Part shown: one piece after another, positions 1-35,117 of the stretch | How positions within the stretch are numbered: the stretch's first letter is position 1 | Layout of the letters: every line of letters begins with the position of its first letter | Assembly (NCBI GenBank): GCA_019057385.1 | Contig: JAHQJS010000003.1 | Location: 64,001 to 128,000, forward strand | Direction of reading: 5' to 3' | DNA: 64,000 nucleotides | Origin: Candidatus Borrarchaeum weybense | Lineage (GTDB): Archaea > Asgardarchaeota > Sifarchaeia > Borrarchaeales > Borrarchaeaceae | Translations under genes and position numbers: made by a program | The notes under the pieces: model-generated | What the model was told of the DNA's origin: nothing | The model's input: the letters and a program-made list of their open reading frames with translations, nothing else | The model's database searches: none

Positions 1-6
1 GGCGTT

Positions 7-705
7 TTGAAGTTTAAGTATCTAGAAAAAGAGAATGTCAATAATCTGTTTAAACACAATTTTGCACTTCTTCTTTATACACTTGAATCAGGAGCAAATA
101 ATACCGAGTTCATATACATTAAATTGGATTATGGAACTATTACTGATAAGAAGGCTACAGATATTTTAAAAGTTGGTTACAAAAAGGTTTTAGGAGAATT
201 AAAAGAAGATTTAGCGAAATTTAAAATATATGAAGAAAGTAAACAAACACCTTTTGAATATGTAATGGTTCTGCTTTGGACACAGATATTCCCTGAGATA
301 ATCAAAAAAAGTCGTGTAGAGAAGATAATCGAATGGAAAGACAGGAAGGAACACATATTCGAAGTAAAATTAGATGAGTTAATTGAATATCTACATAAAA
401 TGTATACATTGCCATCTTTGAGTGCAACTGACAAAAAGCAATTTACAACCAAGATAATACAGAAAGCCATGACTATGTTTTCAAAGGTTAAAATTAAAAG
501 TGAAAGAACTAGAAAACTCGAACCTTTGGTTACGTATGGTGAAAAAGACGGTTCTATGGTATTTAGAGTGGTTTATAAAAAACTTCGGGAGAAGAAAGAA
601 TTGGACTTCATTCTTAAGTCGATTTATTTGGAACAAGGTGAAATTGAAGACAAGGAAACTCAAAGAGAATTAATTAATTATCCACGATTAGATACATGGT
701 TTTAA
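7..705 (+). CDS. Hypothetical protein, probably 5'-truncated by the window edge; lies upstream of cas7-like gene
   Basis: 232-aa ORF at the window start; no recognisable motif. Confidence 0.6.
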   Translation: MKFKYLEKENVNNLFKHNFALLLYTLESGANNTEFIYIKLDYGTITDKKATDILKVGYKKVLGELKEDLAKFKIYEESKQTPFEYVMVLLWTQIFPEIIKKSRVEKIIEWKDRKEHIFEVKLDELIEYLHKMYTLPSLSATDKKQFTTKIIQKAMTMFSKVKIKSERTRKLEPLVTYGEKDGSMVFRVVYKKLREKKELDFILKSIYLEQGEIEDKETQRELINYPRLDTWF

Positions 706-936
706 AATTTTAAATAAAAAGTAGTTATAAATTGATTCGCTGTTCTGTTAGTTATAGCGAGAGAGTTCTTTTTCCATAATTTTCTATACTAAAAACCGCT
801 TAGAACAATTTTTTCAAAGAAAGGAAGTCAACTATACACCCATTTTATTAGAGGAGATGGGAAAACCTAATTTTTTTGATGGGTTTATAAATCTAGTTAT
901 AGAATGTATAAATGAGATTATATCGAGGTTGGAAAT

Positions 937-1758
937 ATGAGAAAAACAAAAAAACTGATGATGATTCATGCCTATACTCCCATTGCAAAACCGATCAACA
1001 CCTCTGTTCAAAAAAATTCAACCATGCTGTTGTTAGGTCAAATTCCCTACGAAAACGGGTCAAAAATATTCACTACTAAGCTTTATTATATCAAAGGATT
1101 ACGTGGAATGCTAAGACATGCCTGTATGAGCCTTGCTCAGGATTGTAGTATCGAGGTGTGTCATACCAGCGAAAAAACTGAACTCAAAGACGGTACAAAG
1201 GTGACTCCCTCAGGGTTTCATCCACTGGGTGAATGTGAACCTCCATGCATCCTCAAAAGAATTTTTGGTACATTTCGCGAGGAGTCCTCAATATCTGTCT
1301 TGTCAGATCCTATAGCTTCTATTAAGCACAAAGAATTTACCACTGAAGTTCCTGTGCAAAAGGTACATATCGCTAGCGAATATAGAATAGCGAAATCGTT
1401 CACGGGTATACCTATTCAGGACTTCAAGGAATCGTATTTCTCAGGGTATTTTAGTTTCTGTATTGATGTAACTGAATTAACTGACTATGAAATCAAGTTT
1501 CTCATGGAATCTCTACTCTACATTGAAACACTTGGTGCTGGTAAGCGTTCGGGTTATGGACGTATCAAAATTATTAGTTTCGAGTTTCAGAAGGTTGAAA
1601 TTACCAGAAAGATCGACCGCGAAAATGGAAGTTATAAAGTTGTTGAGAATGAGTCGATAACGCCCTTAGAACTCGATGATATCGAGAGTTGGAGGGATTC
1701 AATACCTTCATGGACACAAGGCACGCAAGATGGTATGCTACCTGTTCTTAACGAGTAG
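937..1758 (+). CDS. Cas7-like RAMP protein (copy 1)
   Basis: RAMP hallmarks: IKGLRGMLRH, Cys cluster with C..IFG, C-terminal G-rich loop LGAGKRSGYGRI; 42 of the first 60 aa identical to 29174..29983. Confidence 0.8.
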   Translation: MRKTKKLMMIHAYTPIAKPINTSVQKNSTMLLLGQIPYENGSKIFTTKLYYIKGLRGMLRHACMSLAQDCSIEVCHTSEKTELKDGTKVTPSGFHPLGECEPPCILKRIFGTFREESSISVLSDPIASIKHKEFTTEVPVQKVHIASEYRIAKSFTGIPIQDFKESYFSGYFSFCIDVTELTDYEIKFLMESLLYIETLGAGKRSGYGRIKIISFEFQKVEITRKIDRENGSYKVVENESITPLELDDIESWRDSIPSWTQGTQDGMLPVLNE

Positions 1759-1843
1759 CACGTTCTTGTGCATGAGACTGCTCATCTATAAAGGTCTGAC
1801 GCCTTTGATGAGGAGGGATGACTCGCAGGGGACGATAAATGTC
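1759..1843 (+). ncRNA. Conserved structured RNA scaffold, copy 1 (candidate guide-RNA scaffold; full unit with hairpins ~1736-1932)
   Basis: ACGTTCTTGTGCATGAGACTG...GGTCTGACGCCT...ATGACTCGCAGGGGACGATAAATGTC; homologous to 27913-28000 and 29025-29111, with compensatory stem changes. Confidence 0.75.
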
Positions 1844-1899
1844 GTAAACATGTTTATGAGTTTACTAAGTCTATCGACTAACCTTGCAAAGCCTCTCTT

Positions 1900-1932
1900 A
1901 AGCGATGGCAAGTTAAACGCTTGTCATCGCTT
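1900..1932 (+). terminator. Hairpin closing the scaffold+guide unit
   Basis: AAGCGATGGCAAG-ttaaacg-CTTGTCATCGCTT, a 13-bp stem (one G-U) followed by T-rich sequence. Confidence 0.55.
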
Positions 1933-2037
1933 CCATTTTATCCTATTGTTTCTTCTATACTTCTTCAGAAAAAGTTAAGAAGTCTAATATAAAAGTAAGA
2001 GTTAAGATAAACGAATGAAAGTGAAGTTTAGATTTTT

Positions 2038-2982
2038 ATGCTAACTCTATCGACTAACCTTGCAACATTACAACTTAAGAATCCTGTTATGTTAGCTGCT
2101 GGAGTTCTCGGTATTTCGGGACCAGTACTTAAACGGGTAGCGAATGCCGGTGCGGGTGCGGTTGTCACAAAATCTATCGGTCCTGAGCCCAGAGAAGGTT
2201 ACAATAATCCAACAGTCGTTCCTTTAAATGAATTTAGTTGTTTGAATGCTGTTGGGCTTTCAAACCCTGGGTATTTAGAGTTTTCCAAAGAAATAATTTT
2301 GGCAAAACAAGAAAACGTTCCAATAATTGTTAGTATATTTGGCGCAGATATTGATGAATTTTGTACAATTGCGAAGAAAATGGAAAAGAGTGGTGCTGAT
2401 GCACTTGAACTTAACCTTTCATGTCCTCATGGAGGAAAATATGGTGCATCTATCGGACAGGATCCACAATTATCAGGTGAAATTGTATACGCCGTAAAAA
2501 ATACCGTGCAGATCCCTGTTTTTATTAAACTCACACCAAACGTGACTGATCTGATTCCTATTGCAAAAAGTGCTGAAAATAATGGTGCCGATGCTATTAC
2601 TGCAATCAACACAGTACGCGCTATGTGCATAGACATTGAAACTGGGCAGCCCTTATTATCAAACGCGTTTGGAGGGCTTTCTGGGCCTGCAATAAAACCA
2701 ATCGCAATCAAACATATTTATGATCTCTATAAAGAAGTAGGGATCCCTCTTATCGGTGTGGGTGGTATTGTTTCTTGGGAAGATGCAATAGAATTCTTTC
2801 TTGCTGGAGCTACTGCAATTCAAGTAGGGACTGGGCTTCTGCGGACATCATTCCTAGACATGTTTAATGAATTAACCGAAGGAATTCTAAGTTATCTCAG
2901 AAGAAAAGGCTATACTCGTTTAGAAGAAATCATTGGACTTACTCATAGACTTAAATCTTATAGGGGATCTTTACACGAGTAA
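2038..2982 (+). CDS. pyrD: Dihydroorotate dehydrogenase family 1B, catalytic subunit
   Basis: LKNPVMLAAG, NAVGLSNPG, ELNLSCPH, GGLSGPAIKP motifs. Confidence 0.95.
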   Translation: MLTLSTNLATLQLKNPVMLAAGVLGISGPVLKRVANAGAGAVVTKSIGPEPREGYNNPTVVPLNEFSCLNAVGLSNPGYLEFSKEIILAKQENVPIIVSIFGADIDEFCTIAKKMEKSGADALELNLSCPHGGKYGASIGQDPQLSGEIVYAVKNTVQIPVFIKLTPNVTDLIPIAKSAENNGADAITAINTVRAMCIDIETGQPLLSNAFGGLSGPAIKPIAIKHIYDLYKEVGIPLIGVGGIVSWEDAIEFFLAGATAIQVGTGLLRTSFLDMFNELTEGILSYLRRKGYTRLEEIIGLTHRLKSYRGSLHE

Positions 2983-3028
2983 TATTCTATAAAAGCCCCC
3001 TTTAAATCTTATAATGCGTTCAAAAAAG

Positions 3029-3625
3029 TCAAAGTTCATCTATATTGATTATCTTTGTAAACTGCTTCACCAATTTTTGAAAGGCCGTATGAGCAAGTTT
3101 TATCGATTCTTCATATTGGGCGGGAATTCTAGACAACTTTACGGTAGTCGCTTGAATAGGGCTGGTTTCAAATGTTTCTTTTGCAGTTTCTGCAACTTCT
3201 TTCAGTTTTTCAAGTTTAAGTTCAGTCCTTCTTGATTGTAAAATCTTTGTGTATATTAACGCTAACCGAAGAAAAATATATGTCACCTCTGGAATTGTAG
3301 GGATGTATTCACGAGAATCCCTAAGAGATGTCCCCTCTTTTCTTAGGAAACCAGAGTCATGCAGTTTTTTAGCGTGTATTGCAATTTGCGCGCTATTTCT
3401 CCTTCCTAATTCATTTGCTAAATCCTTCAATCGGGTGGCGCTATCAAAGACTGTCGTTTTCAATATAGCAAGTCTTTTATCGCTAGCAAGTACACTAAAT
3501 AGATCACATAGAGCATTTATGTCATCCTCAGCGAAGGATATCATATTTAACCCAGCAAATAAGAGAGTACTACCTTCTTTTGCCTTTTTTTGGTTCGATT
3601 CTTGATTTTCCTTTTCTTTTGGCAT
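3029..3625 (-). CDS. ArsR-like winged-helix transcription regulator
   Basis: LFSVLASDKRLAIL...LANEL...IAIHAKKLHDSGFL wHTH pattern; start at MPKEK assumed. Confidence 0.65.
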   Translation of the reverse strand: MPKEKENQESNQKKAKEGSTLLFAGLNMISFAEDDINALCDLFSVLASDKRLAILKTTVFDSATRLKDLANELGRRNSAQIAIHAKKLHDSGFLRKEGTSLRDSREYIPTIPEVTYIFLRLALIYTKILQSRRTELKLEKLKEVAETAKETFETSPIQATTVKLSRIPAQYEESIKLAHTAFQKLVKQFTKIINIDEL

Positions 3626-4329
3626 TATTATCAACTTTTGTCGAGTTATATTGTTATAACGCCCTATCATGTTTGTCTTTTGATATTATTATTAAGTTGT
3701 GTCGAATATATATTATAATACTATGTGTTATATTTATATATTTCTAAAAACAAAAGCTTTATTCTTCAAAAAAAAAGATTTATTATGAGTTTAAAATCGC
3801 TTCAGGTGCTTCTAGTGCTTCAAAAAACATTGGTGGTCGTCTTATACAATATAAGACGCTTAAGAGTGTTTACCATGGAAAAGGTATACCCGGATCCAAC
3901 AATTCGCCCTCCTGAATGTTTTTTTAAATAGTTTTTTAAAAAATAATAGATAACAAAATACATATTTTGAGCGTTGGGCATTATTTGGTCGCAAATATAA
4001 GGGCCACGTATTTTTCCGAAACTCAGATTCTCTTTAAAGAGAATTATAGTTACAAGAATAAAAACTAAGATTCAATAAATGAAAGTAAATGTCGTTATGA
4101 CAAAATGCTCACAAAATTAGAGACACTCTTGAGGCTAGACAAATAAACTAAAATTTGAATAATTGGAAGAACTTCCAAAAGATGTTGTTCAAGTCCACAT
4201 TATTTACTTACATTTATATTCTTCAACAGGCTTTATTTCTATTGTAATGCATACTAATATCAAACTGAGCGCAACGGAATAAACGTGCTACAGAATTCAC
4301 AGAATTATATTCTTCTTGGGCGAGAGTAA

Positions 4330-7300
4330 ATGGATTTTAAAAGCGAAATGCAATTTTTTTTCAATTTGCGTGACCTAACAGCACGAAAAGGGAAAATACA
4401 TAATATACTCTCTCAATTAGAAAAAATGCAACAAAGGAACGATCCAGTCATCAGTTTAAACATGGCTGAAGCACTTATTGAAAATTGCTTATTAATTGAC
4501 AACGATGAAGATCGTCTACAACATTACAACCGAGCACTTGAACTAGTTCAGATTGCACGTCTTATTTTGAAAGAAAAAAGCCAGACGAGGCTGCTTCTAC
4601 GATCATACCATCTTGAATGCTTTATAAAGTACCATACCATGAAATACAGAGATGAAGAAGCTTCTATTCTCGACATCTTTAATTTGGGTGGGAAAATCAT
4701 CAAAAGAGTAACACAGGCCAAAACAAACGATCCATATACGGAATATGATGACTACTGTTCTTTAGGCTGTGTTTGGCGTGCCTACGGACTCATGTCGCAA
4801 CTTATCCATAAATTTCAGAAATTAAATGTTGAACAAAGACGCGATATGTTAGAGAACGCTAGAGCATTGACACATAAAGCTGTAGATGCGAGTAACAGTA
4901 CAAATAACAGAGATGCAAACGTTTTGTCAGCTTATATTTTTGCTTTTGTCGAAACGTCACAAATGGTTCTACGTGGTGATAAAGCTACTACTGAAAAAGA
5001 TTTTATTAAAATTATAGGCCTTTACGATGTCTTGTTTGAGGCTGCTCACTCGTATGGCTCAATCGAGTTCGAATATTTGGCTTTATTAAACCATACACGG
5101 TTAAATTTATCACGCTATGCCTACACAATAGGGACAAATGAGGAAAAAAGAGAGTTACTCCATGATATATTGAATGATTGTAAGAAACTAGAAGAATACA
5201 ATAACTTAATTCGAATGCCACACTTCCTGTTTTATTATTATACCGTGCGAACTGAAGCCTACTTAAGTTTCCTTTATTTTGAAGTTTTTAGTGAAAAAGA
5301 ATATAACTATTACGTTAACAAAGCTTTAAAATCTGCAGAAAAACTGAAGTTCGTATACGAATCTAAAGATATGATAAGCGAACGCGATAAAATTGACTTA
5401 CATCATAACCTTATCTTTGTATATATGATGACCGCGTCTTTCGCCACTTCACAAAAAGAAAAACATGAATATTTGAAAAAATGTGAGGAATTACTTCTAG
5501 AAGATGAACAAAGTACAGCTGTCTGGTCACAGAGAGCGTACTCCATTTGGCGTGATCTTTCTTCAATTTACTTGGACCTTGCAAAAGTCGAGCGTAATCA
5601 TATATATTTCGAAAAATGCGTATTCTATGCAAAAAAGGCATACTATTCAGCGCTGGAAACTGAGGTCTTCACAGACGCGTTTTTTGAAGCATATAAAATT
5701 GCCATGATCGCTGAAAGTTTCCAGAAGCATAATTTGTCTATAAAGCATTATAATTTAGCCCTTCAGTTGTTAGCCAAAATAATTCAGGCAGGGAAAGATT
5801 ATCCGTACTATAGAAATTTAGAAACCTATCTATCAGCTCGGTTGCTGGGCGTAAAAGCTAAGGAAGAACATCGTAAAGGTAGTTATATACAAGCTACGAA
5901 CTTATATCGCGAAGCAAGTTCTATTTTGCGACCAAATAAGCTTTATTTATATGAAAGCCTACTGTATAACATTTACGCGTTATTTGAAGATGCGTCTACA
6001 CGTTTTATAGAGGAAAAATATAAGGAAACATTTACCATTCTTTCTAATATTACCTGCTTATTTGATGAAACTGCAAAACACTATGCTGAAGATTATAAAC
6101 CCCAATTTCAGTATTTTATCGATAGACGCGCTTATGATCTACAACTTGATTATTTCGAATCTTCAAAGACTTTTTGCCTTGCTCAGTCGAATATTTTACA
6201 GGCATTAATTTATCGTAGTACTGGAGACAGTGAGAGATCAATAAAGTTGCTAAAGGAAGCCAATACTCTACTCAAACCATTTACAGATCGAAATATTCAC
6301 ATAGCAGGCTATTCTTCATTTGCAAAAGGACTATACGGACTTGAAAAATCCGAACTTAACATAAGAAACGGTGAATATAAACGCGCAGCATCATATCTTG
6401 CAAATGCATCTGATCAATTTGAAACTGCATCAAAAGTGTTAGCATCTGACGAACAACTAAGACAGTTATGTGATGGACTAAAATTCTTTTGTCGGGGATG
6501 GATGAATACTTTAGAAATTATGCGCCGTGACATAGACCATAGCACCACAGAATTGCATACTAATTTTACTCTCGCTAGTCAATCTTTCGTAAATGCAACC
6601 AGATCCTTGAAAATGTTCAAGAAGACGTCCAAAGGAGTTTCTGGATTCGAGAAATTATTGAGTTATATCTATTATTCATTATTATTCCAAAAAACTGATG
6701 ATCTTGCAGAAAAAAGCAAGTTTAAGGATAATATGACTGCAGTGCTAGGTGAGGCACTGCAATATTTTAAAGACGCTGAAGATATGGAACGATATAGGTT
6801 TACAAAAGATATAATCACTACACTACTTCAATTGGAAGATATACGCGAAAACATCTTGAAACCCATTACCATACCATTTACACTATATACACCAATATTT
6901 GACTCTACGACTATAGTCGAGCCCAGTAGCGTAAACATTGCAATATCACTTGATAAGGATCAAGTAGAGGTTAATGACGAAATACAGTACACAATAGAAA
7001 TCAATTCCGATAATTCAGTCTATATGAAACAAATTGATGGTTTGATCCCAAAAAAAGGTGTAAAAGTGGTCTCAAATTCGCAATTGGCAAAGAACGGTAC
7101 GATAGAAATAAATCGCTTTTTATCTCCTGGTAATCCAATAAAAATTGAATTCCAAGTTCAGGCATCCACACCGCTTCATAACAAAGCACATCCACGATTA
7201 TTATATCTCAACACAAAAAACGAGAAATGCCGCGCTTTTACATTGCCTCTTACGTTACAAGTGTACCCCAAAAATGCATTAAAATCTGGCGTGGTATGTA

Positions 7301-8217
7301 CAATCAATGAAAAAATCAATCTAGTGAAGGGTATTTTGAAGGAACTAGGAATCATCCTAGGGGAATTTCCGGTCCTATACCATGACATTAATTCATATCG
7401 CGAAGCTTTAGCAGAGTATTATTTCCGTTATAAAACCGACGAGGGTGGGAAGAAGCACCGTTCAAAAAAGACAGACATTTCCAAGATCCCAATACAACAG
7501 ATGGCTTTTGTAGACCCTCTTGGTGAAGTAAATATCCTTTATGATCTGGAGACATATCTCTATCCGCAATCTATTGCGAATCTTCTGGGCATTATCATAC
7601 ATGAAAAATTCGGTCATGGTTTCTTTCAACAGTATACATCATTAGGGAAAAAATTGCTAGAACTGGAATACCACCAAAAAGGTGTAGAATTACTTATGAA
7701 AGAGCTAGAAAAAATATCAAATAAGTATGCTATGGGGATTCAATGGCTTGCCGTTTCTACATTGATCGTCGATGAAGGGTTCGCAACTTGGCTAGAGTTA
7801 AAGACTTTCGAAAAACTGCTTGAAAAAATATCAGATAAAGATTCACAGTTTATTCAACAGATACATCACGAGATAGAAAGTTTCAGAAAAACGGTATTTG
7901 AAAGCGAAGAACTCAATGTGAAGCATGAGTATTTTGCCTTAAAATATGAGAAGACTGTTATCAATCCTTACGCAGAAGGATACGATTTGTTCTCACAAAT
8001 TGAAGAGAAATACGGCGAAAAGTGCGTACCGAAAGCATTAGAAATCGCTGCAAATGTCCCCTTGACAAAGCGACAGATCTCTCTTATGCCAAATACGATA
8101 AAAAATGATAAAACCTGTGCTGATAAAAGATTAGAAAAAATAGCGTGCTCAGATCTCAAAATAGAGCGAAACAATGTTGATATGTTTGAGAAAGCTGCCA
8201 AGGAATTGTTTTTGTAA
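4330..8217 (+). CDS. Large helical-repeat (TPR-like) protein with beta-sandwich and C-terminal zincin-like domain
   Basis: 1295-aa ORF; alpha-helical A/Y/L-rich repeats, Ig-like segment (ISLDKDQVEVNDEIQYTIEI), HEKFGH and downstream DEGFATWLE. Confidence 0.6.
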   Translation: MDFKSEMQFFFNLRDLTARKGKIHNILSQLEKMQQRNDPVISLNMAEALIENCLLIDNDEDRLQHYNRALELVQIARLILKEKSQTRLLLRSYHLECFIKYHTMKYRDEEASILDIFNLGGKIIKRVTQAKTNDPYTEYDDYCSLGCVWRAYGLMSQLIHKFQKLNVEQRRDMLENARALTHKAVDASNSTNNRDANVLSAYIFAFVETSQMVLRGDKATTEKDFIKIIGLYDVLFEAAHSYGSIEFEYLALLNHTRLNLSRYAYTIGTNEEKRELLHDILNDCKKLEEYNNLIRMPHFLFYYYTVRTEAYLSFLYFEVFSEKEYNYYVNKALKSAEKLKFVYESKDMISERDKIDLHHNLIFVYMMTASFATSQKEKHEYLKKCEELLLEDEQSTAVWSQRAYSIWRDLSSIYLDLAKVERNHIYFEKCVFYAKKAYYSALETEVFTDAFFEAYKIAMIAESFQKHNLSIKHYNLALQLLAKIIQAGKDYPYYRNLETYLSARLLGVKAKEEHRKGSYIQATNLYREASSILRPNKLYLYESLLYNIYALFEDASTRFIEEKYKETFTILSNITCLFDETAKHYAEDYKPQFQYFIDRRAYDLQLDYFESSKTFCLAQSNILQALIYRSTGDSERSIKLLKEANTLLKPFTDRNIHIAGYSSFAKGLYGLEKSELNIRNGEYKRAASYLANASDQFETASKVLASDEQLRQLCDGLKFFCRGWMNTLEIMRRDIDHSTTELHTNFTLASQSFVNATRSLKMFKKTSKGVSGFEKLLSYIYYSLLFQKTDDLAEKSKFKDNMTAVLGEALQYFKDAEDMERYRFTKDIITTLLQLEDIRENILKPITIPFTLYTPIFDSTTIVEPSSVNIAISLDKDQVEVNDEIQYTIEINSDNSVYMKQIDGLIPKKGVKVVSNSQLAKNGTIEINRFLSPGNPIKIEFQVQASTPLHNKAHPRLLYLNTKNEKCRAFTLPLTLQVYPKNALKSGVVCTINEKINLVKGILKELGIILGEFPVLYHDINSYREALAEYYFRYKTDEGGKKHRSKKTDISKIPIQQMAFVDPLGEVNILYDLETYLYPQSIANLLGIIIHEKFGHGFFQQYTSLGKKLLELEYHQKGVELLMKELEKISNKYAMGIQWLAVSTLIVDEGFATWLELKTFEKLLEKISDKDSQFIQQIHHEIESFRKTVFESEELNVKHEYFALKYEKTVINPYAEGYDLFSQIEEKYGEKCVPKALEIAANVPLTKRQISLMPNTIKNDKTCADKRLEKIACSDLKIERNNVDMFEKAAKELFL

Positions 8218-8239
8218 GGTCAGGAAAGGTGATAATACC

Positions 8240-26872: not shown

Positions 26873-26997
26873 TATGAATTAAATCTTATCGTTAGTTCTT
26901 TCATCAATATAAGATAACTTAGTTTGATTCTTACCGTTCCTTTCATAATAGACATCTATTACAGCGAATAGTGTCTATCCACCCACGATAAGAACAT

Positions 26998-27268
26998 GAG
27001 TGGAGGGCCCGCTAGGACGGTTAAGCGGGATACCTACCGCCATATAGGGTGCAGGCCTTGCGTGAACGAAACGATGATTTATTATCAGCGTTCCCGCAGA
27101 ATCGACGGCGTACGGGAGTGCTGGGCTGAAGTCCGTGAAGTGGTCCCGGGGCGAATGCTTAAACCTCCGGGTGCCTCATCTTACCATCAATTCTCACTTA
27201 TATACTGGAGGACCTGCTTTATAAACACCACGCCTCACGCGTTCACTGTGGAACCCCTTGCCCGCGAA
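26998..27268. ncRNA. Unidentified GC-rich structured RNA candidate
   Basis: GC-rich island between convergent genes with stems CCCGCT/AGCGGG, CAGCGTTCCCG/CGGGAGTGCTG, CCCGGGG/CTCCGGG and long-range GTGAACG/CGTTCAC. Confidence 0.5.
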
Positions 27269-27304
27269 AGAATCGTCTATATTTGTCTATAAAATAAATA
27301 ACTG

Positions 27305-27595
27305 TTAATCACCCTCTTGTAACTTTTGTTTGATCACAAAAACTCGTATTTTTTCCTCTGCAATTATAAGTGTATCATTGATGGATTTAATTACAGAATG
27401 AGGAATTAAAATTGTTCCTTTCTCATCGCGCGGAAATTTTTCAATATCTGGATGTTTAGTAGGCTTCACACACACCGCTAATAGGTGGCCATCTCGCGAA
27501 TTAATTATGAAATCAACTACCTTTCCCATAGCAGAACCTTTTTCATCAGTTACAGAAATACCAACTAAGTCCCGGATATCGATGATTTCCGACAT
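27305..27595 (-). CDS. PRC-barrel domain protein
   Basis: DLVGISVTDEKGSAMGKVVDFII...ILIPHSVIKSINDTLII. Confidence 0.85.
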   Translation of the reverse strand: MSEIIDIRDLVGISVTDEKGSAMGKVVDFIINSRDGHLLAVCVKPTKHPDIEKFPRDEKGTILIPHSVIKSINDTLIIAEEKIRVFVIKQKLQEGD

Positions 27596-27912
27596 TTTTC
27601 ATCCCATCAGACCTTGCATGAGTCGGTCTATGTTAAATCAATATTTTTTGCTATTAATATCATCTGCTTCGAGTTATAAATTAGTCAAGTCATATTGACA
27701 GAACCTTTTCAAAAAGCAAAAATGAGAGTAGAATTGGAAAATTCAAAATTCGATTCAATAAATCTCGAATGAAAAGTGAAAACTAAAGAACGCTGTGCAA
27801 TTATCTTCGTTTAAATCATACAAAAGTCTATCATAATGCAGGAAATAGGAGGGAATAATCCCTCCTTATCTAATATTTACAGGAATGCCGATTAAGTCGC
27901 GGATATTTTTTT

Positions 27913-28000
27913 GACATTTTTCGTCCCCTGCGAGTCATTCATTCCCAACAAGTGAGGCGTCGGACCTCTAATTTGGTTCAGTCTCATGCACAAGAACGTG
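27913..28000 (-). ncRNA. Conserved structured RNA scaffold, copy 2 (full unit ~27847-28023)
   Basis: Reverse complement CACGTTCTTGTGCATGAGACTGAACCAAATTAGAGGTCCGACGCCTCACTTGTTGGGAATGAATGACTCGCAGGGGACGAAAAATGTC. Confidence 0.75.
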
Positions 28001-28091
28001 TCCCCCGTGATATACGAAGAACATTCCGCCTTGTAACTCATTAAACCTCTTGAAAAGAGTCTATATAAACACCGCGATTCAAAACAAAGAT

Positions 28092-28919
28092 TCATTCTTG
28101 CCATGTATACAAACCACTCTTCAAGTCATCAAGATAGAGATTTACCATAAGGAGTAGGTGATTTTTTAAAGATGAAAAGCCAAATTTTAGCGCTTCGCTG
28201 ATCTTATCAAACGCTTGACATTTTCGAATATAAGTATAAAGAGCATAAGGGGAATATTGACGCCTTTCTATCTCTATTTTTAATACATCGAAATCAATTT
28301 TTTCTAATTCTGTCACACGATAACGAGAGGACGCTGACCATCTAAATTTTCGAGAAATCATTGCAGATAGTCGGTCATAATGTTGTAATAAATAAAGCCA
28401 AAGAAAATCTTTTTCATCTATATCATAATTGTGATGATTCTTTGCAAGTTTGAAGACATCTTCGTCAGCTATATCAACATCAGTATAAATTTTACTTGGA
28501 TGTCGATCAGTGCCTACAAAATCATGCAGGAGCATTGCTATAATTAACTTTTCCTGCATATCTGAGAGTTTAGGAAGTTTCTTACGAATCTTAATTCTTC
28601 TTGTAGTATAGAGAGGCTTTTTCTTGAGTTTTTTGAGAGAAGTCCAAAAGATTCGTCCCATCCCCTCACATGTATAACTTCCAACACTATCAATAGCAAG
28701 TGCTTCTTCAAGTTTATGTTCTGAAACGATAAACTCAATATTACCAAACCACGCCCTAAAGGTCATTGGCGCACGTCTTTGTCCTACCGTTAATTTTCCG
28801 AATACCCTGGGACGACCTTTTATGGTCATCGCTCCAACGTCGGTAACTCCAAAATGTCTACGCTTTGAAACAATAGGAGTTTTTGTATAACCAATTAATT
28901 TAAAGTATTTCTGTGGCAT
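28092..28919 (-). CDS. Cas5-like RAMP fused to HD nuclease domain
   Basis: N-terminal FKLIGYTKTPI strand and G-loop VGSYTCEGMGRI; C-terminal LLHDF...NHH...YDRLSA HD motifs as in Cas10/Cas3 HD domains. Confidence 0.68.
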   Translation of the reverse strand: MPQKYFKLIGYTKTPIVSKRRHFGVTDVGAMTIKGRPRVFGKLTVGQRRAPMTFRAWFGNIEFIVSEHKLEEALAIDSVGSYTCEGMGRIFWTSLKKLKKKPLYTTRRIKIRKKLPKLSDMQEKLIIAMLLHDFVGTDRHPSKIYTDVDIADEDVFKLAKNHHNYDIDEKDFLWLYLLQHYDRLSAMISRKFRWSASSRYRVTELEKIDFDVLKIEIERRQYSPYALYTYIRKCQAFDKISEALKFGFSSLKNHLLLMVNLYLDDLKSGLYTWQE

Positions 28920-29024
28920 TTTATTCCCTCTTATAAGATTTTACCTCCTCTTTGAACAAAAGAGAGGAGATATAAACCTTGCCAAAGTAAACACGTTTGC
29001 AACTGTTGTTTGTAAAGTGGGTAT

Positions 29025-29111
29025 GACATTTTTCGTTCCTTGCGAGTCATCCGTCCCCAACAATTGAGGCGTCGGACCTCTAAGCTGGTTCAGTCTCATG
29101 CACAAGAACGT
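29025..29111 (-). ncRNA. Conserved structured RNA scaffold, copy 3 (full unit ~28945-29134)
   Basis: Reverse complement ACGTTCTTGTGCATGAGACTGAACCAGCTTAGAGGTCCGACGCCTCAATTGTTGGGGACGGATGACTCGCAAGGAACGAAAAATGTC. Confidence 0.75.
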
Positions 29112-29173
29112 ATCACTCACATCAGTAAGTGATAAACCGTAATGAGATGAGAAAAAAAGTTGAAATAAATGTG

Positions 29174-29983
29174 TCACACAGCCACCTTCTCATCCTGTTT
29201 ACTCATAGTATTCAAAGAAGTTCTCCAATCCTCGATTTTACTTAGAGAAAGCGGAATTTCAGTGGTTTCTTCTATAATTTTATAGTTTCCTTCGCTATCC
29301 TCTTCGACTCTTCGAAAAGTCTCAACCTTCTGAAGAGCAATATTAAGGATTTTGACGCAACCATATCCACTTGACCGTCCTGCCCCAAGAATTTCTACGT
29401 AGAGCATTGCTTCTATAAGAAACTTGATTTCAACATCAGTTAGATTAGTGACATCAATTTGAAAGGAAAAAAATCCACTGAAATAACTCTCACGAAAGTC
29501 TTGGATGGGAGTACCATCATAGGCAAGCGCTATTCTGTTTTCACTAGAGATGTGGACATTTTGAACTGGCACTATTGTTATAAAATCTTTGTGTTTAATC
29601 GAGGCAATAGGGTCTGCTGCGACAACAATAGAGGACTTTTCACGGAAGGTGCCAAAGATTGTTCTGAGAATACAGGGAGGATCGCATGTACCAAGCGCAT
29701 GAAATCCTTGCGGAAGAACACTTTTACCATCTTTAAGTTCAGTTTTTTCAGAACTATGACATACTTCGATGTTGCAGTCTTGAGCAAGTTCCATACAGGC
29801 ATGTCTTAACATCCCTCGGATACCTTTAATGTAATAAAATTTAGTATTGAACGTTTTTTCTCCATTCACATAAGGAAATTTCCCTAACAAGAGCATGCTA
29901 GAATTTTTCTGAATCGAGGCATTGATAGGCTTTGCTATGGGTGTAAAGGCGTGAACAACTATCTGGTTTTTGATTTTTCTCAT
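29174..29983 (-). CDS. Cas7-like RAMP protein (copy 2)
   Basis: IKGIRGMLRH, CDPPCILRTIFG, G-loop LGAGRSSGYGCV. Confidence 0.8.
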   Translation of the reverse strand: MRKIKNQIVVHAFTPIAKPINASIQKNSSMLLLGKFPYVNGEKTFNTKFYYIKGIRGMLRHACMELAQDCNIEVCHSSEKTELKDGKSVLPQGFHALGTCDPPCILRTIFGTFREKSSIVVAADPIASIKHKDFITIVPVQNVHISSENRIALAYDGTPIQDFRESYFSGFFSFQIDVTNLTDVEIKFLIEAMLYVEILGAGRSSGYGCVKILNIALQKVETFRRVEEDSEGNYKIIEETTEIPLSLSKIEDWRTSLNTMSKQDEKVAV

Positions 29984-30326
29984 GTTTCCAACCTCAAATA
30001 TATTTAGTACAAGTACCTATATAAACCTTGCTCAAAATAAACACTTTTTCTACTCTTGTTAGTAAAATGGGGTTTAAAATGACTTCCTTTTTAGAAATAA
30101 AGTATTTTAAACAGGTTTTATGTGAAAAACCATTGTATGTTTAGAACCTGATTTATAAATCACAATGTAACATTCAATTTACATCATCATTTTTTTAAAA
30201 GAATAGTTGTTTGATTTAACAAAATTAAGTTTCTTCGGGAATTCAAAAAGAGTACATTGATGGTATCAACTAAACTAAAAATCGTTCGAAAAAAATAATT
30301 GTTCCATTGATGGTTGCTAATAAAAA

Positions 30327-33300
30327 TTAGGGCAATAGATCTTTTACTGTAACTGGAGGACCCTTTTTCTGTGGTTTATAGATGCCTTCTAAATGTTGGA
30401 ATCTTTCAAACATTAAGTGGAGAGTTTCCTTATCTGGAGCGTAAATAAAGGGGATGAATCGCTTATTTTCTAGCAAAAAATCCTTGAGTTGTACTGCACA
30501 CTGCCTTAAAGCCTCCATTACTGTCATCTTCTGTTCAAGATAGTATATTTCTTGATTGAGTATATCATCAACTAGTCTCTCAACTTTGTAGTGTCCATTC
30601 CATGTTAGGTGATAGAATTGTTCGTGTTCAAGCGTTTTACGCTTCTTGAAATCAGCTTTTGTAAATTCACCATACAAACATGCTAAAATTAGGGTGAGCC
30701 TGAACAAGGGAATAAACATTTCTCGAAAATCAAAGATAGTGCCTAGAAAGGAGCGTTGGGTTTTTTTAAAGTGCAGTATCAGTTCATCCGGTACCCAAGA
30801 AAATCCTACTTCAGCGAGTGCTTTTCGACAGTAAAGGTTAAGATGACGATAAACAGCATTGAGTGCAGCACTAAAGGGTGTACGTGCTTTTACTTCTCCT
30901 AAAAGGACAACGGTGGAAATATAGCGTTCTAGGGTACGACTAATGATCTCAAAGTAGGTTCCTCTTAGCAAACGTTTAGGGATTTCCCAGGCAACTCCTT
31001 CAACTAAGCCTTCAAACCCACGGAGGTTGTCAATATTACCCCTCCAATAGAGAAAAGTATATGCTACTCGATCCAGCAATTTAGATAAGAGCTCTTGAGC
31101 ATTTTCAGCAGATAACAACCCCTCTTTTTCAACTTGGAGTACTGAATTGGCTAGACCTATATCTTTACTTATTGTCAGAAGCCATGCTAGCAATTTGCCT
31201 CGTTCTGTTCCTCTGATTCGCTGAGCGGCATATTTCAGTTCGTCGGCTACCTGTTGTTTCTTTGGAGTTAGTTTATTTTGTGCAAAGAAACTACCTTTTG
31301 GTGTATTTGCATCAATGAGTTTCTTGCTATATTTCTTACGAATGTATTGCGATATATCGCCACCTTCAATGATGATATTACGGATAGCACCGACTAAATA
31401 CCGTTTTGTTTCTCTTCCGTCTTTTAGTGTATGAACAAATCGTTTTTTTCTAATATCGAGCCTTTCATTACACTTGACACGGATATTTCGTTTTGGTCTT
31501 CTGATATAGACCTTTGTCTTTTTAACTCTCTGAACATAATTCCCGGGCTTACCTATAAGCAGTTCTAAATTTGTTTGCAATACATCACGATAACCCGGTT
31601 TTATTACAAGTTCACCATTAACGGTCAAATGATAACTGGAATTGCATTCAGGACAGACTGTATATTCCATATATGAGGACGGTAATTCCACAATGCCACG
31701 AGGTTTACAGTTTAAACATGTAATGCTGCCATTTGTTTCTTGCAATATTCTTATTTTACGTTTTTTTAACCTTTGAACATTTTCGTGATGTTCGCATGCA
31801 CTCTTCCTTGGTGTGGCGTAAGGATTTCTTGCTCGTTTTCCTACTTGTTTGTTTAATTTGCAGTTTAACACACAAACATGTGCATGTTTCGATCTTCGAC
31901 GGTCCTTTATAGGGTTTATCTGAATGAACTTACAAGATCCACAGGTGAGCCGAAGATGTTCAGGAATACTTGCGTTCACATCAGCTACATAGATTTTGGG
32001 GCGCCCTCGAAGCTGACCTTGAGAGATAACCTGTATTTGCTCTTGTATTTTTAACTGCTTGATGTGCTTAACTATCGTAGTATAGTGAACATTTTGATTG
32101 TATTGCTTGCGAACCTCTGACAAAATAAAATCGTAAGAAATGATTCCATGTTTTTTAATAATGTTATAAATTGCTTTATGAAGTCCGGGATATGGTTTCG
32201 GTCTTTGCTTTGGATACCAACGTCTCTTTTTAACTTTTTTCGCTTCATTAGCTTTAAGCTCATTATATTTAGCATTTAGTTTAGTTGAGAGTTCTTTAGC
32301 GACTCGTGCTTCTCTCAGGTCTCTTTGTCCCAAAAAGCTATAACTTGCTTCTGCGATCCATGAGGCTGTTTTCTTATGAGATTCAGCATCACCCAGTCGT
32401 ATTTTTGCCTGAATTGCAGCTTCTGTTACTGTAGATCCTTGACTTAGTAACTTAATGAAGGCTGTATACTGTTGGGCGTTATACCGTTTGGTGTTACTTA
32501 GTTCACGCATACATTGCCCAACAAGTTTGACTAATTGTTGGGAAAACTCCTGTTCTGAAGAGGAATGATTTGTGACAAAAAACTTCTTGATCCTTATTGC
32601 AATTTTGATCGGCAGTAAATATTTACTTGCCCAACGACCCTTGTCTGTTGCACAGAACCTTCCTCCATTTTTTCTAACAAAACCTTCCGTGATCAGCGTT
32701 TGAAGGATACCCTGTTTCTTATTTCTTTCATCAGACTCAGGTTTAGCCAATAGATCTCCTTTTAATTGCTGTTTGAAGTCTTTCAATTTGTCATAGGTGA
32801 ATGGTGTGAGAAATAAGCGAAGTTCGCCGTATTTAACCTTGTTTGCAGTGGTTCTTTTCCTGATCCAAATGAAAAATGTTCGAGTTAATCGTTTCAAGTC
32901 GTTCGGCAGGGAACCTTTGTGTGCGTCGAATAGTATTAACAGTAAATGATTTTCATTATTAAGTTGGCATAGTTCCTCTTCTTTGGTCATAAGTGCACTA
33001 TTCATTAGTTCGAACCAGTTCCGTAGCATTGTTTTGTATTGATGAAAGAAATAGTGCCTTTCAAGTTTGCTCAGTAATTGATTCGAGGATACAGAACCCT
33101 TAGCTATTAATGTAAGTACAATATCTGCCATTGAAGAACGTGCTTGGCTTTTAATGCTATGTTCTTTCACTATCAGTTGTCCTTCAACGATTTGTATCTC
33201 CTTTTGTTTCAGAAGTTCTTGGTCGTTTCCAACAAAGATCAAGTCAGCATACCCAATCCTATGATGTCGCGGTCGTGCCGCCCTGCCACTCAGTTGTATA

Positions 33301-34310
33301 AGCAGTTGGGGGCTGAACATTTCAGCATCGTTGATTATCACTCGTTTAATCGGAAAGTTAACCCCCTCTCCGTATTGGATTGTTGAAACAAAGACCTGAA
33401 ATTCGCCATTGTTAAGTCGCCTCATAGCTTCTCGTTGTTCTTTCTTACTGAGTCCTGCGTGACTGTAGCCAACTTTGAGATCGAAACCAGAATTCTTGAG
33501 AAAGATCTGCAATATTTCAGCATATTTCTCAACCTGTTTTCGTGTGTAACAGAAGAGTTGCACGATTTTGATCTGATGTTCATCATTCGAAGGTTGCTCA
33601 AAGGTCTTTTTTATCAATCTAGCGAAAAGAAAAATCTTTTTTCGTTCAATTTGTTCTAATTTATTGCCTGAAATTCCAAAAGTCGACACAATAAGTGTCG
33701 ATCGCCGCTCTTTTGTGTGTATAAGATGAGCATCGAGCCAACTTGCCAGATCTTCAGTATTACCTAATGTAGCCGAGAGATAGATAATTTGCGGACGAGG
33801 ACGCAACCACGCTTTAGCATTAACAATTGCGGTTTCTAGGTGCACGCCCCGCCCTTTTTTGCCTAAATTGTGCAGTTCGTCAACTACCAGCAATCCCACT
33901 TGGTCTAAGAATGGATATTCAAAATGTTTGGCTAGTAGTCCATTAAAGGATTCGTAGGTGATGACGAGAATATCCGCACTTTGAATCTCTTCAGGAGCTG
34001 GTCGATCATCTCCGCTGACCCTGAGGATGGTACATGTGTCTTGATACCACTCTTTGAATCTATCGTACATTTGATCGATTAGACGCTTGGTCGGCTCAAG
34101 GATCACACAGCGCAAACCTTTTCCTAGTATTTTTGTAGACATTATTTGAGCGATCAAGGTTTTTCCCGAAGCTGTGGGAGAGTACAATATCTTATCCTGT
34201 CTTTGCTTCCCAGAAAAACATGCTTCCCATTGAAAATCGTAGAGAGCTTTGATGTCAGCCTGTTCTAATCGTTGACGAATGAATTCGTAGTTAAACCCTC
34301 TTTTTGTCAT
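30327..34310 (-). CDS. SF2 (Ski2/Hel308-like) helicase - wHTH/Zn-finger - Cas1-like integrase fusion
   Basis: SPTASGKT, VVDELH, LSAT, QLSGRAAR; CxxC pairs; C-terminal IDNLRGFEG...PFSAALNAVY...GFSW...LILH...IFDFREMF...FIPF follows the Cas1 catalytic-domain pattern. Confidence 0.8.
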   Translation of the reverse strand: MTKRGFNYEFIRQRLEQADIKALYDFQWEACFSGKQRQDKILYSPTASGKTLIAQIMSTKILGKGLRCVILEPTKRLIDQMYDRFKEWYQDTCTILRVSGDDRPAPEEIQSADILVITYESFNGLLAKHFEYPFLDQVGLLVVDELHNLGKKGRGVHLETAIVNAKAWLRPRPQIIYLSATLGNTEDLASWLDAHLIHTKERRSTLIVSTFGISGNKLEQIERKKIFLFARLIKKTFEQPSNDEHQIKIVQLFCYTRKQVEKYAEILQIFLKNSGFDLKVGYSHAGLSKKEQREAMRRLNNGEFQVFVSTIQYGEGVNFPIKRVIINDAEMFSPQLLIQLSGRAARPRHHRIGYADLIFVGNDQELLKQKEIQIVEGQLIVKEHSIKSQARSSMADIVLTLIAKGSVSSNQLLSKLERHYFFHQYKTMLRNWFELMNSALMTKEEELCQLNNENHLLLILFDAHKGSLPNDLKRLTRTFFIWIRKRTTANKVKYGELRLFLTPFTYDKLKDFKQQLKGDLLAKPESDERNKKQGILQTLITEGFVRKNGGRFCATDKGRWASKYLLPIKIAIRIKKFFVTNHSSSEQEFSQQLVKLVGQCMRELSNTKRYNAQQYTAFIKLLSQGSTVTEAAIQAKIRLGDAESHKKTASWIAEASYSFLGQRDLREARVAKELSTKLNAKYNELKANEAKKVKKRRWYPKQRPKPYPGLHKAIYNIIKKHGIISYDFILSEVRKQYNQNVHYTTIVKHIKQLKIQEQIQVISQGQLRGRPKIYVADVNASIPEHLRLTCGSCKFIQINPIKDRRRSKHAHVCVLNCKLNKQVGKRARNPYATPRKSACEHHENVQRLKKRKIRILQETNGSITCLNCKPRGIVELPSSYMEYTVCPECNSSYHLTVNGELVIKPGYRDVLQTNLELLIGKPGNYVQRVKKTKVYIRRPKRNIRVKCNERLDIRKKRFVHTLKDGRETKRYLVGAIRNIIIEGGDISQYIRKKYSKKLIDANTPKGSFFAQNKLTPKKQQVADELKYAAQRIRGTERGKLLAWLLTISKDIGLANSVLQVEKEGLLSAENAQELLSKLLDRVAYTFLYWRGNIDNLRGFEGLVEGVAWEIPKRLLRGTYFEIISRTLERYISTVVLLGEVKARTPFSAALNAVYRHLNLYCRKALAEVGFSWVPDELILHFKKTQRSFLGTIFDFREMFIPLFRLTLILACLYGEFTKADFKKRKTLEHEQFYHLTWNGHYKVERLVDDILNQEIYYLEQKMTVMEALRQCAVQLKDFLLENKRFIPFIYAPDKETLHLMFERFQHLEGIYKPQKKGPPVTVKDLLP

Positions 34311-34851
34311 AATAATGATCTGCCCCCTCAGCTTCGTCTAATTAGATATTAGCTAAAATTCATTTATAAAGCGGGTAAACTTTCAAATCGATTGCTAGAA
34401 TGTTCTATTCGATAAAAAACAAGTTTGCCTTCGGCATAGTTACCTTCGCTATGTCGCTTCTCAAAAAAAAACCACCGTTGAAGAAGGTAATTAATCCTTC
34501 TCTTCAATGATAGAGGAGGGTTCGATTTTAATCACCTATAGAACATAATGAAATACAGAGGACAAAAAACTACAATAAGACTTATTGCTTCCAAAGTATT
34601 TAAACTCGACAACTCGTGATTTAAGTAGTTAATCAAGAAGGCTAAACTTCTTAGAAAATATGGTAGAAGAATCTTCATCGAAAAAGGTTTTTGAGGGAAA
34701 AGAAAAACATCTGTGACATTGTTCCTACTATAAGTTTGCCGATAAAGTTAAAAAAAAGACTTCGTATAGATATTGTCCAATACTTTGGCACAATAATGTA
34801 ACTCGTGGACTATTTTAATAATATAAGTTCCCTTGTAATCAAACAATTGAA

Positions 34852-35028: not shown

Positions 35029-35117
35029 CTCTTCACTCACGGAACAAATTACTGGTTTTTAATGGGTTAAATATGCGCCTTAATGTTGCAACATAATGTA
35101 TTGTCAATTTTCTCTTA

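What the first reader, a model, noticed from the sequence alone, without database searches (positions are those of the whole stretch)
1865..2065. Variable segment of RNA copy 1 matches the start of neighbouring pyrD (24/25 nt)
Seen: CTAAGTCTATCGACTAACCTTGCAA (1865-1889) versus CTAACTCTATCGACTAACCTTGCAA (2041-2065, pyrD from codon 2), including 20 consecutive identical nt. The RNA has the same sense as the mRNA, so it could pair only with the template DNA strand. The duplicate lies between scaffold and 3' hairpin and does not flank the cas7 locus, so it does not fit a target-site duplication. Inference: a homing guide analogous to the self-targeting spacers of CRISPR-associated transposons, or a guide for transcription control of pyrD.
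Basis: partly seen in the sequence, partly recalled or inferred. Interest (0 to 1): 0.87.

Follow-up and report, generated by a model that had tools for sequence, protein, structure and literature searches.

The report
Guide-like RNA tail matching pyrD start
The stretch after a conserved RNA of an array-less, CRISPR-derived Asgard element (ARAMP) is the original start of the neighbouring pyrD gene, and across many such loci these stretches differ from their gene copies as Cas7-bound guides differ from their targets, which may supply the missing RNA guide of this system.

Summary
In detail: 1865-1889 and 2041-2065 match 24/25, and independent contigs carry both copies.

- **What it is.** Related genomes without the element show that 1852-1889 is the native pyrD start (-4..+34). 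It sits directly after the 3' end of a 134-nt structured RNA that follows a Cas7-like gene of an ARAMP locus. Today's pyrD restarts at a new ATG behind a 151-nt insert (hairpin/terminator plus A/T-rich upstream DNA). A contig from another study joins 1864 to 2041, i.e. the RNA fused directly to native pyrD.
- **Recurrence.** At least nine further loci show the same layout, including the PRC-barrel gene in this window and ftsY.
- **Guide signature.** Mismatches between tail and gene copy cluster at tail positions 5+6k (22 of 37). Internal tails differ from their own cas7 promoter in the same register (28 of 40). This is the every-sixth-base pattern of Cas7-bound guides. The pyrD mismatch is at position 23.
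- **Reading.** The tail is most likely a real guide derived from the insertion site, probably used to recognise that site (homing or retention). Control of transcription is the main rival.
- **Limits.** No RNA data exist.

Other first-reader notes of this scan had flagged the same pattern at other loci of this genome.

The parts
937..1758 (+). Cas7-like RAMP gene (273 aa) of ARAMP locus 1
   Evidence: Pfam RAMPs 29.5 bits, above cut-off; PADLOC Csm3 E 1.8e-7
1718..1851 (+). Structured RNA scaffold, copy 1. The conserved end is ...GTC GTA at 1841-1846, so tail position 1 = 1847
   Evidence: Covariance model R1, 119 bits, E 4e-30; 5' hairpin with compensatory changes in 24 copies
1852..1889 (+). 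Tail N: native pyrD -4..+34 (original start codon at 1856-1858); candidate guide, tail positions 6-43
   Evidence: 36/38 identical to the uninterrupted pyrD start of relative G004
1865..1889 (+). Repeat copy 1 (the finding); its single mismatch, 1869, is tail position 23
1890..2040 (+). 151-nt insert: 14-bp hairpin 1900-1932 plus T-rich run, A/T-rich upstream region, new ATG 2038-2040. It is unique in the genome
   Evidence: Absent from relatives, whose homology resumes at 2041. Skipped, together with one repeat copy, by a contig of run X5. Terminator-like. No other copy in the genome
2041..2065 (+). Repeat copy 2 (T): pyrD codons 2-9 of the rebuilt gene
2038..2982 (+). pyrD (dihydroorotate dehydrogenase), two codons shorter than in relatives
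30327..34310 (-). Helicase-Cas1 fusion (1327 aa) of ARAMP locus 2; candidate trans-acting integrase
   Evidence: DEAD/Helicase_C, Hel308-like, Cas_Cas1 24.7 bits in residues 950-1226
29174..29983 (-). Cas7-like RAMP gene of locus 2
29017..29152 (-). Scaffold copy 2 (internal)
28965..29016 (-). Internal tail, which also holds the cas5-HD promoter-like TATA. It matches the cas7-upstream region 30019-30071 with mismatches at tail positions 5, 11, 17, 21, 23, 27, 35
30019..30071 (-). cas7-upstream copy (candidate target of the internal guide)
28092..28919 (-). 275-aa gene with a glycine-rich RAMP-type motif and HD-type motifs (Cas5-like/HD in earlier notes); no family hit here
27905..28041 (-). 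Scaffold copy 3 (terminal)
27875..27906 (-). Tail of copy 3 = native PRC-barrel gene +31..+62
   Evidence: 31/32 to G004, exactly contiguous with the left-junction fragment
27550..27579 (-). Matching stretch in the present PRC-barrel gene (25/30)
34505..34535 (-). Left junction of locus 2: native PRC-barrel upstream region plus its first 30 nt, then element DNA

Best explanation
SHOWN. Bases 1852-1889 are the original 5' end of pyrD. An ARAMP element is inserted so that the 3' end of its structured RNA gene abuts pyrD 4 nt before the start codon. In this genome a 151-nt insert then split off the first 38 nt and gave pyrD a new ATG and upstream region. The result is the 25-nt repeat.

INFERRED. 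The RNA is transcribed as scaffold, then tail, then hairpin. Cas7-like subunits line the tail as they line a class 1 crRNA spacer, with every sixth base (tail positions 5, 11, 17...) unpaired. The tail pairs with the complementary (template) strand of DNA that carries the same gene end.

MOST LIKELY USE. The tail recognises the element's attachment site. Because it is derived from the insertion site, it matches the unoccupied site in element-free chromosomes. That would allow homing or re-insertion by the helicase-Cas1 and HD proteins encoded elsewhere in the genome. Where the element interrupts a reading frame, a diverged replacement copy of the gene end keeps the host gene working.
For: 1. 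Anatomy from empty sites.
- Three relatives carry an uninterrupted pyrD whose start equals 1852-1889. Homology to this genome resumes exactly at 2041.
- At the PRC-barrel and ftsY loci the native gene is cut precisely. The left fragment ends at +30 / +113, and the tail begins at +31 / +114.

2. Recurrence.
- 5 of 18 terminal or weak copies tested in this genome match DNA downstream of them (0 of 200 shuffles each).
- Five more such loci occur in a relative and in metagenome contigs.
- In other loci the scaffold end directly abuts host DNA.

3. Guide register.
- Internal tails match only the cas7-upstream region of their own subfamily.
- 28 of their 40 mismatches lie at 5+6k (binomial 1e-13, shift test 2e-5).
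- Tail versus gene copy: 22 of 37 mismatches are in the same register (shift test 4e-6). Within the wobble phase the count is 22 against 9 (P 0.015).
- The single mismatches of pyrD, L062 and locus 7 fall at positions 23, 17 and 29.

4. The PRC tail differs from the empty alleles of G004 and G002 only at positions 11 and 23 (read by hand).

5. 30 of 38 mismatches lie in one codon phase. The copies therefore diverged as coding sequence, not by neutral decay.

6. Proteins: the RAMP is Csm3/Cas7-like, and Cas1 is present.

7. Established knowledge: in Cascade and Csm/Cmr complexes every sixth guide base is flipped out and does not pair.
Against: - No RNA evidence exists. Only DNA runs hold this sequence.
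- The tail is host DNA in place, so its presence needs no function.
- 13 of the 18 copies tested in this genome show no target within 3 kb downstream. A register-aware genome scan of those 18 tails found none in trans.
- Locus 1 has neither Cas1 nor the HD protein. Its three upstream ORFs are orphans.
- The RAMP is closest to type III Cas7, which targets RNA. Yet the tail has the same sense as the pyrD, PRC-barrel and ftsY mRNAs.
- The present pyrD copy still pairs at 24/25, so a nuclease would risk self-targeting.
- The left junction of locus 1, inside codon 3 of nop5, does not fit a simple insertion.
- How the diverged replacement gene ends arise is not explained.
- The loci come from related populations. 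The register was first seen in one locus and then tested on the others. One of the nine pairs (locus 7) uses only its well-matched core.
Confidence: 0.45

Rival explanations
1. Regulatory guide. The RNA-protein complex binds DNA without cutting and represses transcription. The internal RNA would shut down the cas7 and cas5-HD promoters (autoregulation). The terminal RNA would sit on the first 25 nt of the rebuilt pyrD, or on the gene end next to other copies.
For: The internal tail covers the TATA-like box of the cas5-HD promoter and matches the cas7 promoter, with mismatches only in the non-pairing register, in three subfamilies. The pyrD copy is effectively a perfect 25-nt match just after the start codon. 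Cr-like RNAs that repress cas promoters are described for CRISPR loci (abstract of 10.1101/2023.03.03.530964).
Against: There is no obvious benefit to an element in repressing pyrD, ftsY or a thiolase. Targets lie at 5' ends, at 3' ends and on either strand relative to the gene. Many copies have no second copy of the tail to act on.
Confidence: 0.2
2. Passive junction scar. The scaffold RNA has some other role, and the tail is only the host flank. The repeat arose because a promoter-bearing fragment was later inserted, or a foreign gene end was recombined in, to restore expression of a gene cut off from its promoter.
For: The tail is native DNA in register with the left fragment. An allele without the 151-nt insert exists. 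The inserts are unrelated to one another.
Against: It does not predict the 6-nt register in non-coding internal pairs. It does not predict the fixed codon phase of seven of eight loci relative to the scaffold end. It does not predict a hairpin 30-60 nt after the scaffold in many unrelated loci.
Confidence: 0.15
3. Adaptation-like integration. The scaffold DNA acts like a CRISPR leader. Helicase-Cas1 inserts DNA fragments a ruler distance downstream and duplicates the 22-49 bp in between, as a repeat is duplicated during spacer acquisition.
For: The pyrD and L062 inserts are flanked by 25- and 23-bp near-perfect duplications. The duplication lengths are in the range of CRISPR repeats. Cas1 is encoded in the genome.
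Against: In my reading of the alignments, the second copy at ftsY and PRC belongs to a diverged, apparently foreign gene end, about 70% identical in ftsY -14..+113. It is therefore not a fresh duplication. The right border varies from 30 to 82 nt. The large elements show no duplication at their own ends.
Confidence: 0.1
4. Assembly or chance duplication.
For: None found.
Against: Contigs of two samples span both copies. Shuffles never reach the match. The same layout occurs at many loci.
Confidence: 0.01

Closest known systems
ARAMP (Asgard RAMP), an array-less type III-derived CRISPR-like system (Makarova et al. 2020, as summarised in PMC8730458 and PMC12669027)
   Same: Cas7- and Cas5-like RAMPs, a distinct Cas1, no CRISPR array, Asgard host, mechanism called enigmatic.
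   Different: The papers I could read mention no RNA partner, guide or target. Here a structured RNA with a site-derived tail follows each RAMP gene. I could not read the 2020 paper itself.
Homing (self-targeting) spacers of CRISPR-associated transposons (types I-F3, V-K)
   Same: The guide matches a conserved host gene next to the element. Mismatches are tolerated. The element sits at the gene end without destroying it.
   Different: There is no Tn7 machinery, array or repeat. The guide is the displaced host sequence itself, the distance to the match is variable, and the element often lies inside the reading frame with a replacement gene end.
omega-RNA / reRNA of TnpB and IscB (IS200/IS605)
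   Same: The scaffold is encoded at the element's end and reads outward, so the guide is the flanking DNA and matches the empty site. There is no target-site duplication around the element.
   Different: The proteins are unrelated (RAMPs, helicase-Cas1). The guide is long (about 25-50 nt) with a 6-nt register. Some loci have a hairpin and a second gene copy.
Class 1 crRNA-target duplex (Cascade, Csm/Cmr)
   Same: A 5' handle followed by a guide lined by Cas7, with every sixth base not engaged. This is the register seen in the mismatches.
   Different: The 5' part is a 130-nt structured scaffold, not an 8-nt repeat tag. There is one guide per RNA gene, and no Cas6 or repeat.
Cr-like regulatory RNAs that repress cas promoters (10.1101/2023.03.03.530964)
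   Same: The internal tail partly matches the system's own cas7 promoter.
   Different: It is not derived from a CRISPR repeat. Only that paper's abstract was seen.
Integrative elements that carry a replacement gene end (for example tRNA-gene integrating elements); casposons
   Same: Insertion into ends of conserved genes, with a duplicated and diverged gene end that keeps the gene intact. Cas1 is the candidate integrase.
   Different: The two copies do not flank the element. No tyrosine or serine recombinase, PolB, terminal inverted repeats or 14-15-bp duplication were seen.

Membership tests
ARAMP | Cas7-like and Cas5-like RAMP genes without a CRISPR array, in an Asgard genome | tested here: met
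   RAMP hits. Repeat search found no array. The Asgard assignment and the Cas5-like call rest on earlier notes and were not re-tested here.
ARAMP | Associated distinct Cas1 | tested here: met
   Cas_Cas1 24.7 bits in the C-terminal part of the 1327-aa helicase fusion. It is absent from locus 1 itself.
Class 1 crRNA-type guide | 6-nt periodic tolerance of mismatches, counted from the handle | tested here: met
   28/40 (internal) and 22/37 (terminal) mismatches at 5+6k; shift tests 2e-5 and 4e-6.
Class 1 crRNA-type guide | Derived from a repeat-spacer array and processed by Cas6 or an equivalent | tested here: not met
   No array and no Rfam or CRISPR-repeat family. Single RNA genes only.
Class 1 crRNA-type guide | RNA is expressed and bound by Cas7/Cas5 | not testable with these tools
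   No RNA run holds the sequence.
CAST homing spacer | Tn7-type transposase genes and a fixed distance between target and element end | tested here: not met
   No such genes among the ORFs scanned. The offset from scaffold end to match is 115-1729 nt.
TnpB/IscB omega-RNA | Guide equals the DNA flanking the element end that carries the scaffold | tested here: met
   The tail is native host sequence in register. Direct abutment at other loci and in the X5 allele.
TnpB/IscB omega-RNA | RuvC-type TnpB/IscB nuclease and a Y1 or serine transposase | tested here: not met
   None found in Pfam, NCBIfam or PADLOC scans of the locus proteins.
Casposon | Terminal inverted repeats, a 14-15-bp target duplication around the element, PolB | tested here: not met
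   No duplication at the ends of the large elements. No PolB among the scanned ORFs. Inverted repeats were not searched for systematically.

The most novel reading that the evidence does not exclude
ARAMP elements are a new kind of RNA-guided mobile element. A Cas7/Cas5-HD complex carries a scaffold RNA whose guide is copied from, or simply is, the element's own insertion site. Its unpaired sixth bases are aligned with codon wobble positions, so the guide tolerates synonymous variation. The complex directs a helicase-Cas1 integrase to the ends of conserved genes, and the element brings a replacement gene end that keeps the host gene alive. A second, internal guide represses the element's own promoters.
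Probability: 0.3. Interest if true: 0.93.

Novelty: new variant of a known kind. Interest (0 to 1): 0.82.

Why it matters
ARAMP has been described as an array-less CRISPR derivative with a Cas1 and an "enigmatic" mechanism (PMC8730458). A scaffold RNA whose tail is derived from the insertion site, and which carries the evolutionary signature of Cas7-type pairing, gives that system a candidate guide, a candidate target and testable predictions. If homing is confirmed, it would be an RNA-guided integration system built on Cas1 rather than on Tn7 or TnpB machinery. It would work in the archaeal group closest to eukaryotes and target the ends of essential genes. If regulation is confirmed, it would be a natural CRISPRi-like circuit. 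Either way it bears on how guides can exist without arrays.

Tried and rejected
- **Rfam and ARAGORN:** both found nothing in the window.
- **RNA runs:** no RNA holder is listed for 900-3000, so expression could not be examined.
- **Inserts as a mobile family:** the inserts between the two copies (pyrD, PRC, ftsY, locus 7, L062) and the left ends of the elements share no sequence with each other or with the rest of the genome. They are therefore not a common mobile cassette.
- **Degenerate second scaffold:** a full-sensitivity search with the RNA model found no degenerate second scaffold in the inserts of this window.
- **Targets in trans:** a register-aware genome scan for the 18 terminal or weak tails of this genome found only the tails themselves.
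- **Left-end copy:** a search for a third copy of the pyrD segment at the left end of the element (a classical target duplication) found none.
- **One conservative crossover of a circle:** rejected, because it cannot place the native segment between the two foreign parts.
- **In-situ duplication followed by neutral decay:** rejected for most loci, because differences sit at wobble positions.
- **Translation from the scaffold into the tail:** considered as an explanation of the fixed codon phase. Rejected, because the open frame through the scaffold is in a different phase from the wobble positions at seven loci (my reading).
- **Makarova 2020 paper:** could not be read.
- **Orphan ORFs:** the three ORFs upstream of cas7 in locus 1 have no Pfam match and no second copy in the genome or the fetched loci.

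Full report
**1. The observation**

The two 25-mers are at 1865-1889 and 2041-2065. They differ at one base, 1869 G versus 2045 C. The shared 20-mer is expected 0.02 times in the window even with three mismatches allowed. Copy 2 starts at codon 2 of pyrD, ORF 2038-2982. Copy 1 lies between a conserved RNA-like scaffold and a 14-bp hairpin with a T-rich tail at 1900-1932. A contig of the likely source run and a 1.4-kb contig of a second sample carry both copies without a difference, so this is not an assembly duplication.

**2. The context**

- The scaffold follows a 273-aa Cas7-like RAMP gene, 937-1758.
- Two more scaffold copies lie on the minus strand at 29152-29017 and 28041-27905. They belong to a module made of a helicase-Cas1 fusion, a Cas7-like gene, RNA, a 275-aa gene with HD-type motifs, and RNA.
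- Earlier notes of this scan, and the reviews I could read, identify this as ARAMP: an array-less, type III-derived system of Asgard archaea with an unexplained Cas1.
- The genome holds 26 scaffold hits.
- An alignment of 24 copies shows a 5' hairpin with many compensatory changes.
- A covariance model finds the RNA in all four other species of the genus searched and in one species of another family. It finds none in the other 145 relatives. An exact 19-mer of the scaffold finds 46 metagenome contigs.

**3. What the tail is**

Relatives G004, G001 and G003 have no element at pyrD. Their gene starts with a sequence that equals 1852-1889 of this window (36/38 for G004). Their homology to this genome resumes exactly at 2041. 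The tail is therefore the original pyrD start (-4..+34), placed directly after the scaffold end.

Bases 1890-2040 are an insert not found in relatives and unique in the genome. It ends in a new ATG in frame with the rest of pyrD.

A 369-nt contig from a different study (run X5, depth 7, 95% identical in pyrD) joins 1864 to 2041. That is the scaffold end fused to an intact native pyrD. I could not see its letters, so I treat it as good but single evidence that the fusion came first and the insert later.

The inserted DNA relative to G004 spans 5.25 kb, C3:60790-66040. Its left border lies in codon 3 of nop5, which also received a new start. I cannot explain that side.

**4. The same layout elsewhere**

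- **PRC-barrel locus (this window).** The native upstream region and first 30 nt sit at 34535-34505, followed by element DNA. The tail of copy 3 is native +31..+62, 31/32 to G004. The present gene carries a more diverged version (25/30) behind a remnant of a scaffold end.
- **ftsY locus.** The native gene is cut at +113/+114 and the tail is +114..+148. In my reading of the alignments, the working gene has a 5' part only about 70% identical to the native one.
- **Counts.** In this genome 5 of 18 terminal or weak copies tested match DNA downstream of them. Further pairs occur in G004 and in metagenome contigs: L048/L139, L062/L112, L121, L125, L126.
- **L062.** This is a 506-nt solo scaffold insert in the 3' end of a gene. 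It has three copies of the segment, and the empty site is present in this genome.
- **Direct abutment.** In other loci the scaffold end abuts host DNA or an intact gene start directly: glmM, rps19e, acyl-CoA dehydrogenase and others. Several of these copies have no cas genes within the 0.3-1.5 kb upstream that was fetched.
- **Start of the host-derived part.** In the loci with an empty-site comparison it begins 4-6 nt after the conserved GTS-NNN end (pyrD 6, PRC 4, ftsY 6, L062 6). The gene-matching stretch found by alignment can begin later, at tail positions 4-21.

**5. How the two copies differ**

Thirty of 38 mismatches fall in one codon phase (P < 5e-5). The copies therefore diverged as coding sequences rather than by decay of a fresh duplicate.

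**6. The guide signature**

A first-reader note on this window (e1-5469001) pointed out 6-nt periodic mismatches between the internal tail and the cas7 promoter. I tested this as follows.

- *Internal tails.* They match only the cas7-upstream region of their own subfamily, in three subfamilies.
- *Internal register.* In six representatives, 28 of 40 mismatches lie at tail positions 5, 11, 17 ... 47. The binomial P is 1e-13. A test that shifts each locus at random gives 2e-5. These regions are non-coding, so codon effects cannot explain a period of six.
- *Terminal register.* In nine terminal pairs, 22 of 37 mismatches fall in the same register (shift test 4e-6). Within the wobble phase the count is 22 against 9 (P 0.015).
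- *Single mismatches.* The only mismatch of the pyrD pair is at position 23, that of L062 at 17, and that of the core of locus 7 at 29.
- *Codon phase.* Seven of eight loci with a readable frame have their wobble positions in phase with this register. pyrD is the exception.
- *Empty alleles.* By hand, the PRC tail differs from the empty alleles of G004 and G002 only at positions 11 and 23.
- *Established knowledge.* In Cascade and Csm/Cmr complexes every sixth guide base is flipped out by the Cas7 thumb and does not pair.

The pattern is what selection for pairing through such a backbone would leave.

**7. Interpretation**

*Shown.* The repeat, its origin from the native gene start, the recurrence, and the two periodicities.

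*Inferred.* The tail is the guide part of a scaffold-guide RNA bound by the Cas7-like protein and pairs with DNA. The tail has the same sense as the mRNA at pyrD, PRC-barrel and ftsY but is antisense at L126. This argues for DNA rather than mRNA as the partner.

I rate attachment-site recognition (homing or retention) most likely, for three reasons. Every element carries the sequence of its own site. That sequence matches empty alleles. The module includes an integrase homologue.

Regulation is the main rival and is well supported for the internal RNA. A purely passive scar fits the anatomy but not the 6-nt register. An adaptation-like duplication next to the scaffold fits pyrD and L062 but not ftsY or PRC.

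**8. Limits**

- No RNA data exist.
- Locus 1 lacks Cas1 and the HD protein.
- Most terminal copies have no second copy nearby, and none has a target elsewhere in the genome.
- The origin of the diverged replacement gene ends and the left junction at nop5 are unexplained.
- The loci are not fully independent, and the register hypothesis was suggested by one of them.

**9. Novelty**

I found no paper in the held library that gives ARAMP an RNA, a guide or a target. The key 2020 paper could not be read. Other first-reader notes of this scan flagged the PRC and ftsY matches independently. Earlier follow-ups described the RNA family and the helicase-Cas1 fusion.

Noticed in passing
window 2990-8240: pyrD and pyrK (8174-9052) are separated by about 5.2 kb. 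This stretch holds a DUF7347 winged-helix gene (3029-3670, minus strand) and a 1295-aa ORF with no family hit (4330-8217). In relative G003 the pyrK match begins about 70 nt after the pyrD match ends, so at least the 1295-aa ORF region (about 4.5 kb) looks inserted in this genome. G004 and G001 share the first ~0.8 kb after pyrD.
   Followed up: partly
window 26933-27313: A stretch absent from G004 lies between the PRC-barrel gene and the next gene. About 130 nt of it matches many contigs of the relatives at 81-90%, which suggests a small repeated element or RNA gene.
   Followed up: no
window 35118-35423 and 62211-62791: Two copies of a repeat family of several hundred nt, 86-97% identical in blocks, with GC-rich hairpin-like segments.
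   Followed up: no
window 34850-35030 (minus strand): GC-rich, tRNA-like sequence conserved in G004 and G002 upstream of the PRC-barrel gene. ARAGORN reported no tRNA in the window, possibly because of an intron.
   Followed up: no
G000 copy 14 (C4:903953), L046, L051, L123, L127, L133, L157: A 96-98-aa ORF whose N-terminus looks to me like a GIY-YIG nuclease (not scanned against any family library) starts directly at the scaffold end in several genomes and contigs. It may be a recurrent cargo or partner gene.
   Followed up: no
L057, L128, L132, L136, L156; L048/L139: A 149-aa gene recurrently follows a scaffold directly. In L048 the 77-nt tail is a copy of the 3' part of that gene.
   Followed up: partly
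L013 13091-16706 (just left of the window; the last ORF runs into window 1-705): Three ORFs (451, 353, 376 aa) between nop5 and the Cas7-like gene have no Pfam match and no second copy in the genome or the fetched loci.
   Followed up: partly
L047 (G001:C73), L058/L039 (G001:C133), L049/L056: Solo scaffolds with no cas genes in the 0.3-1.5 kb fetched upstream lie immediately upstream of rps19e, glmM and an acyl-CoA dehydrogenase gene. The scaffold's GGTGAT-type end takes the place of the ribosome-binding region. The acyl-CoA dehydrogenase site is occupied in two species and empty in this genome.
   Followed up: partly
window 1770-1978: An open frame runs through the scaffold from a conserved ATG (in GCATGAGAC) into the tail, and likewise in other copies. 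It is probably a by-product of nucleotide conservation.
   Followed up: no
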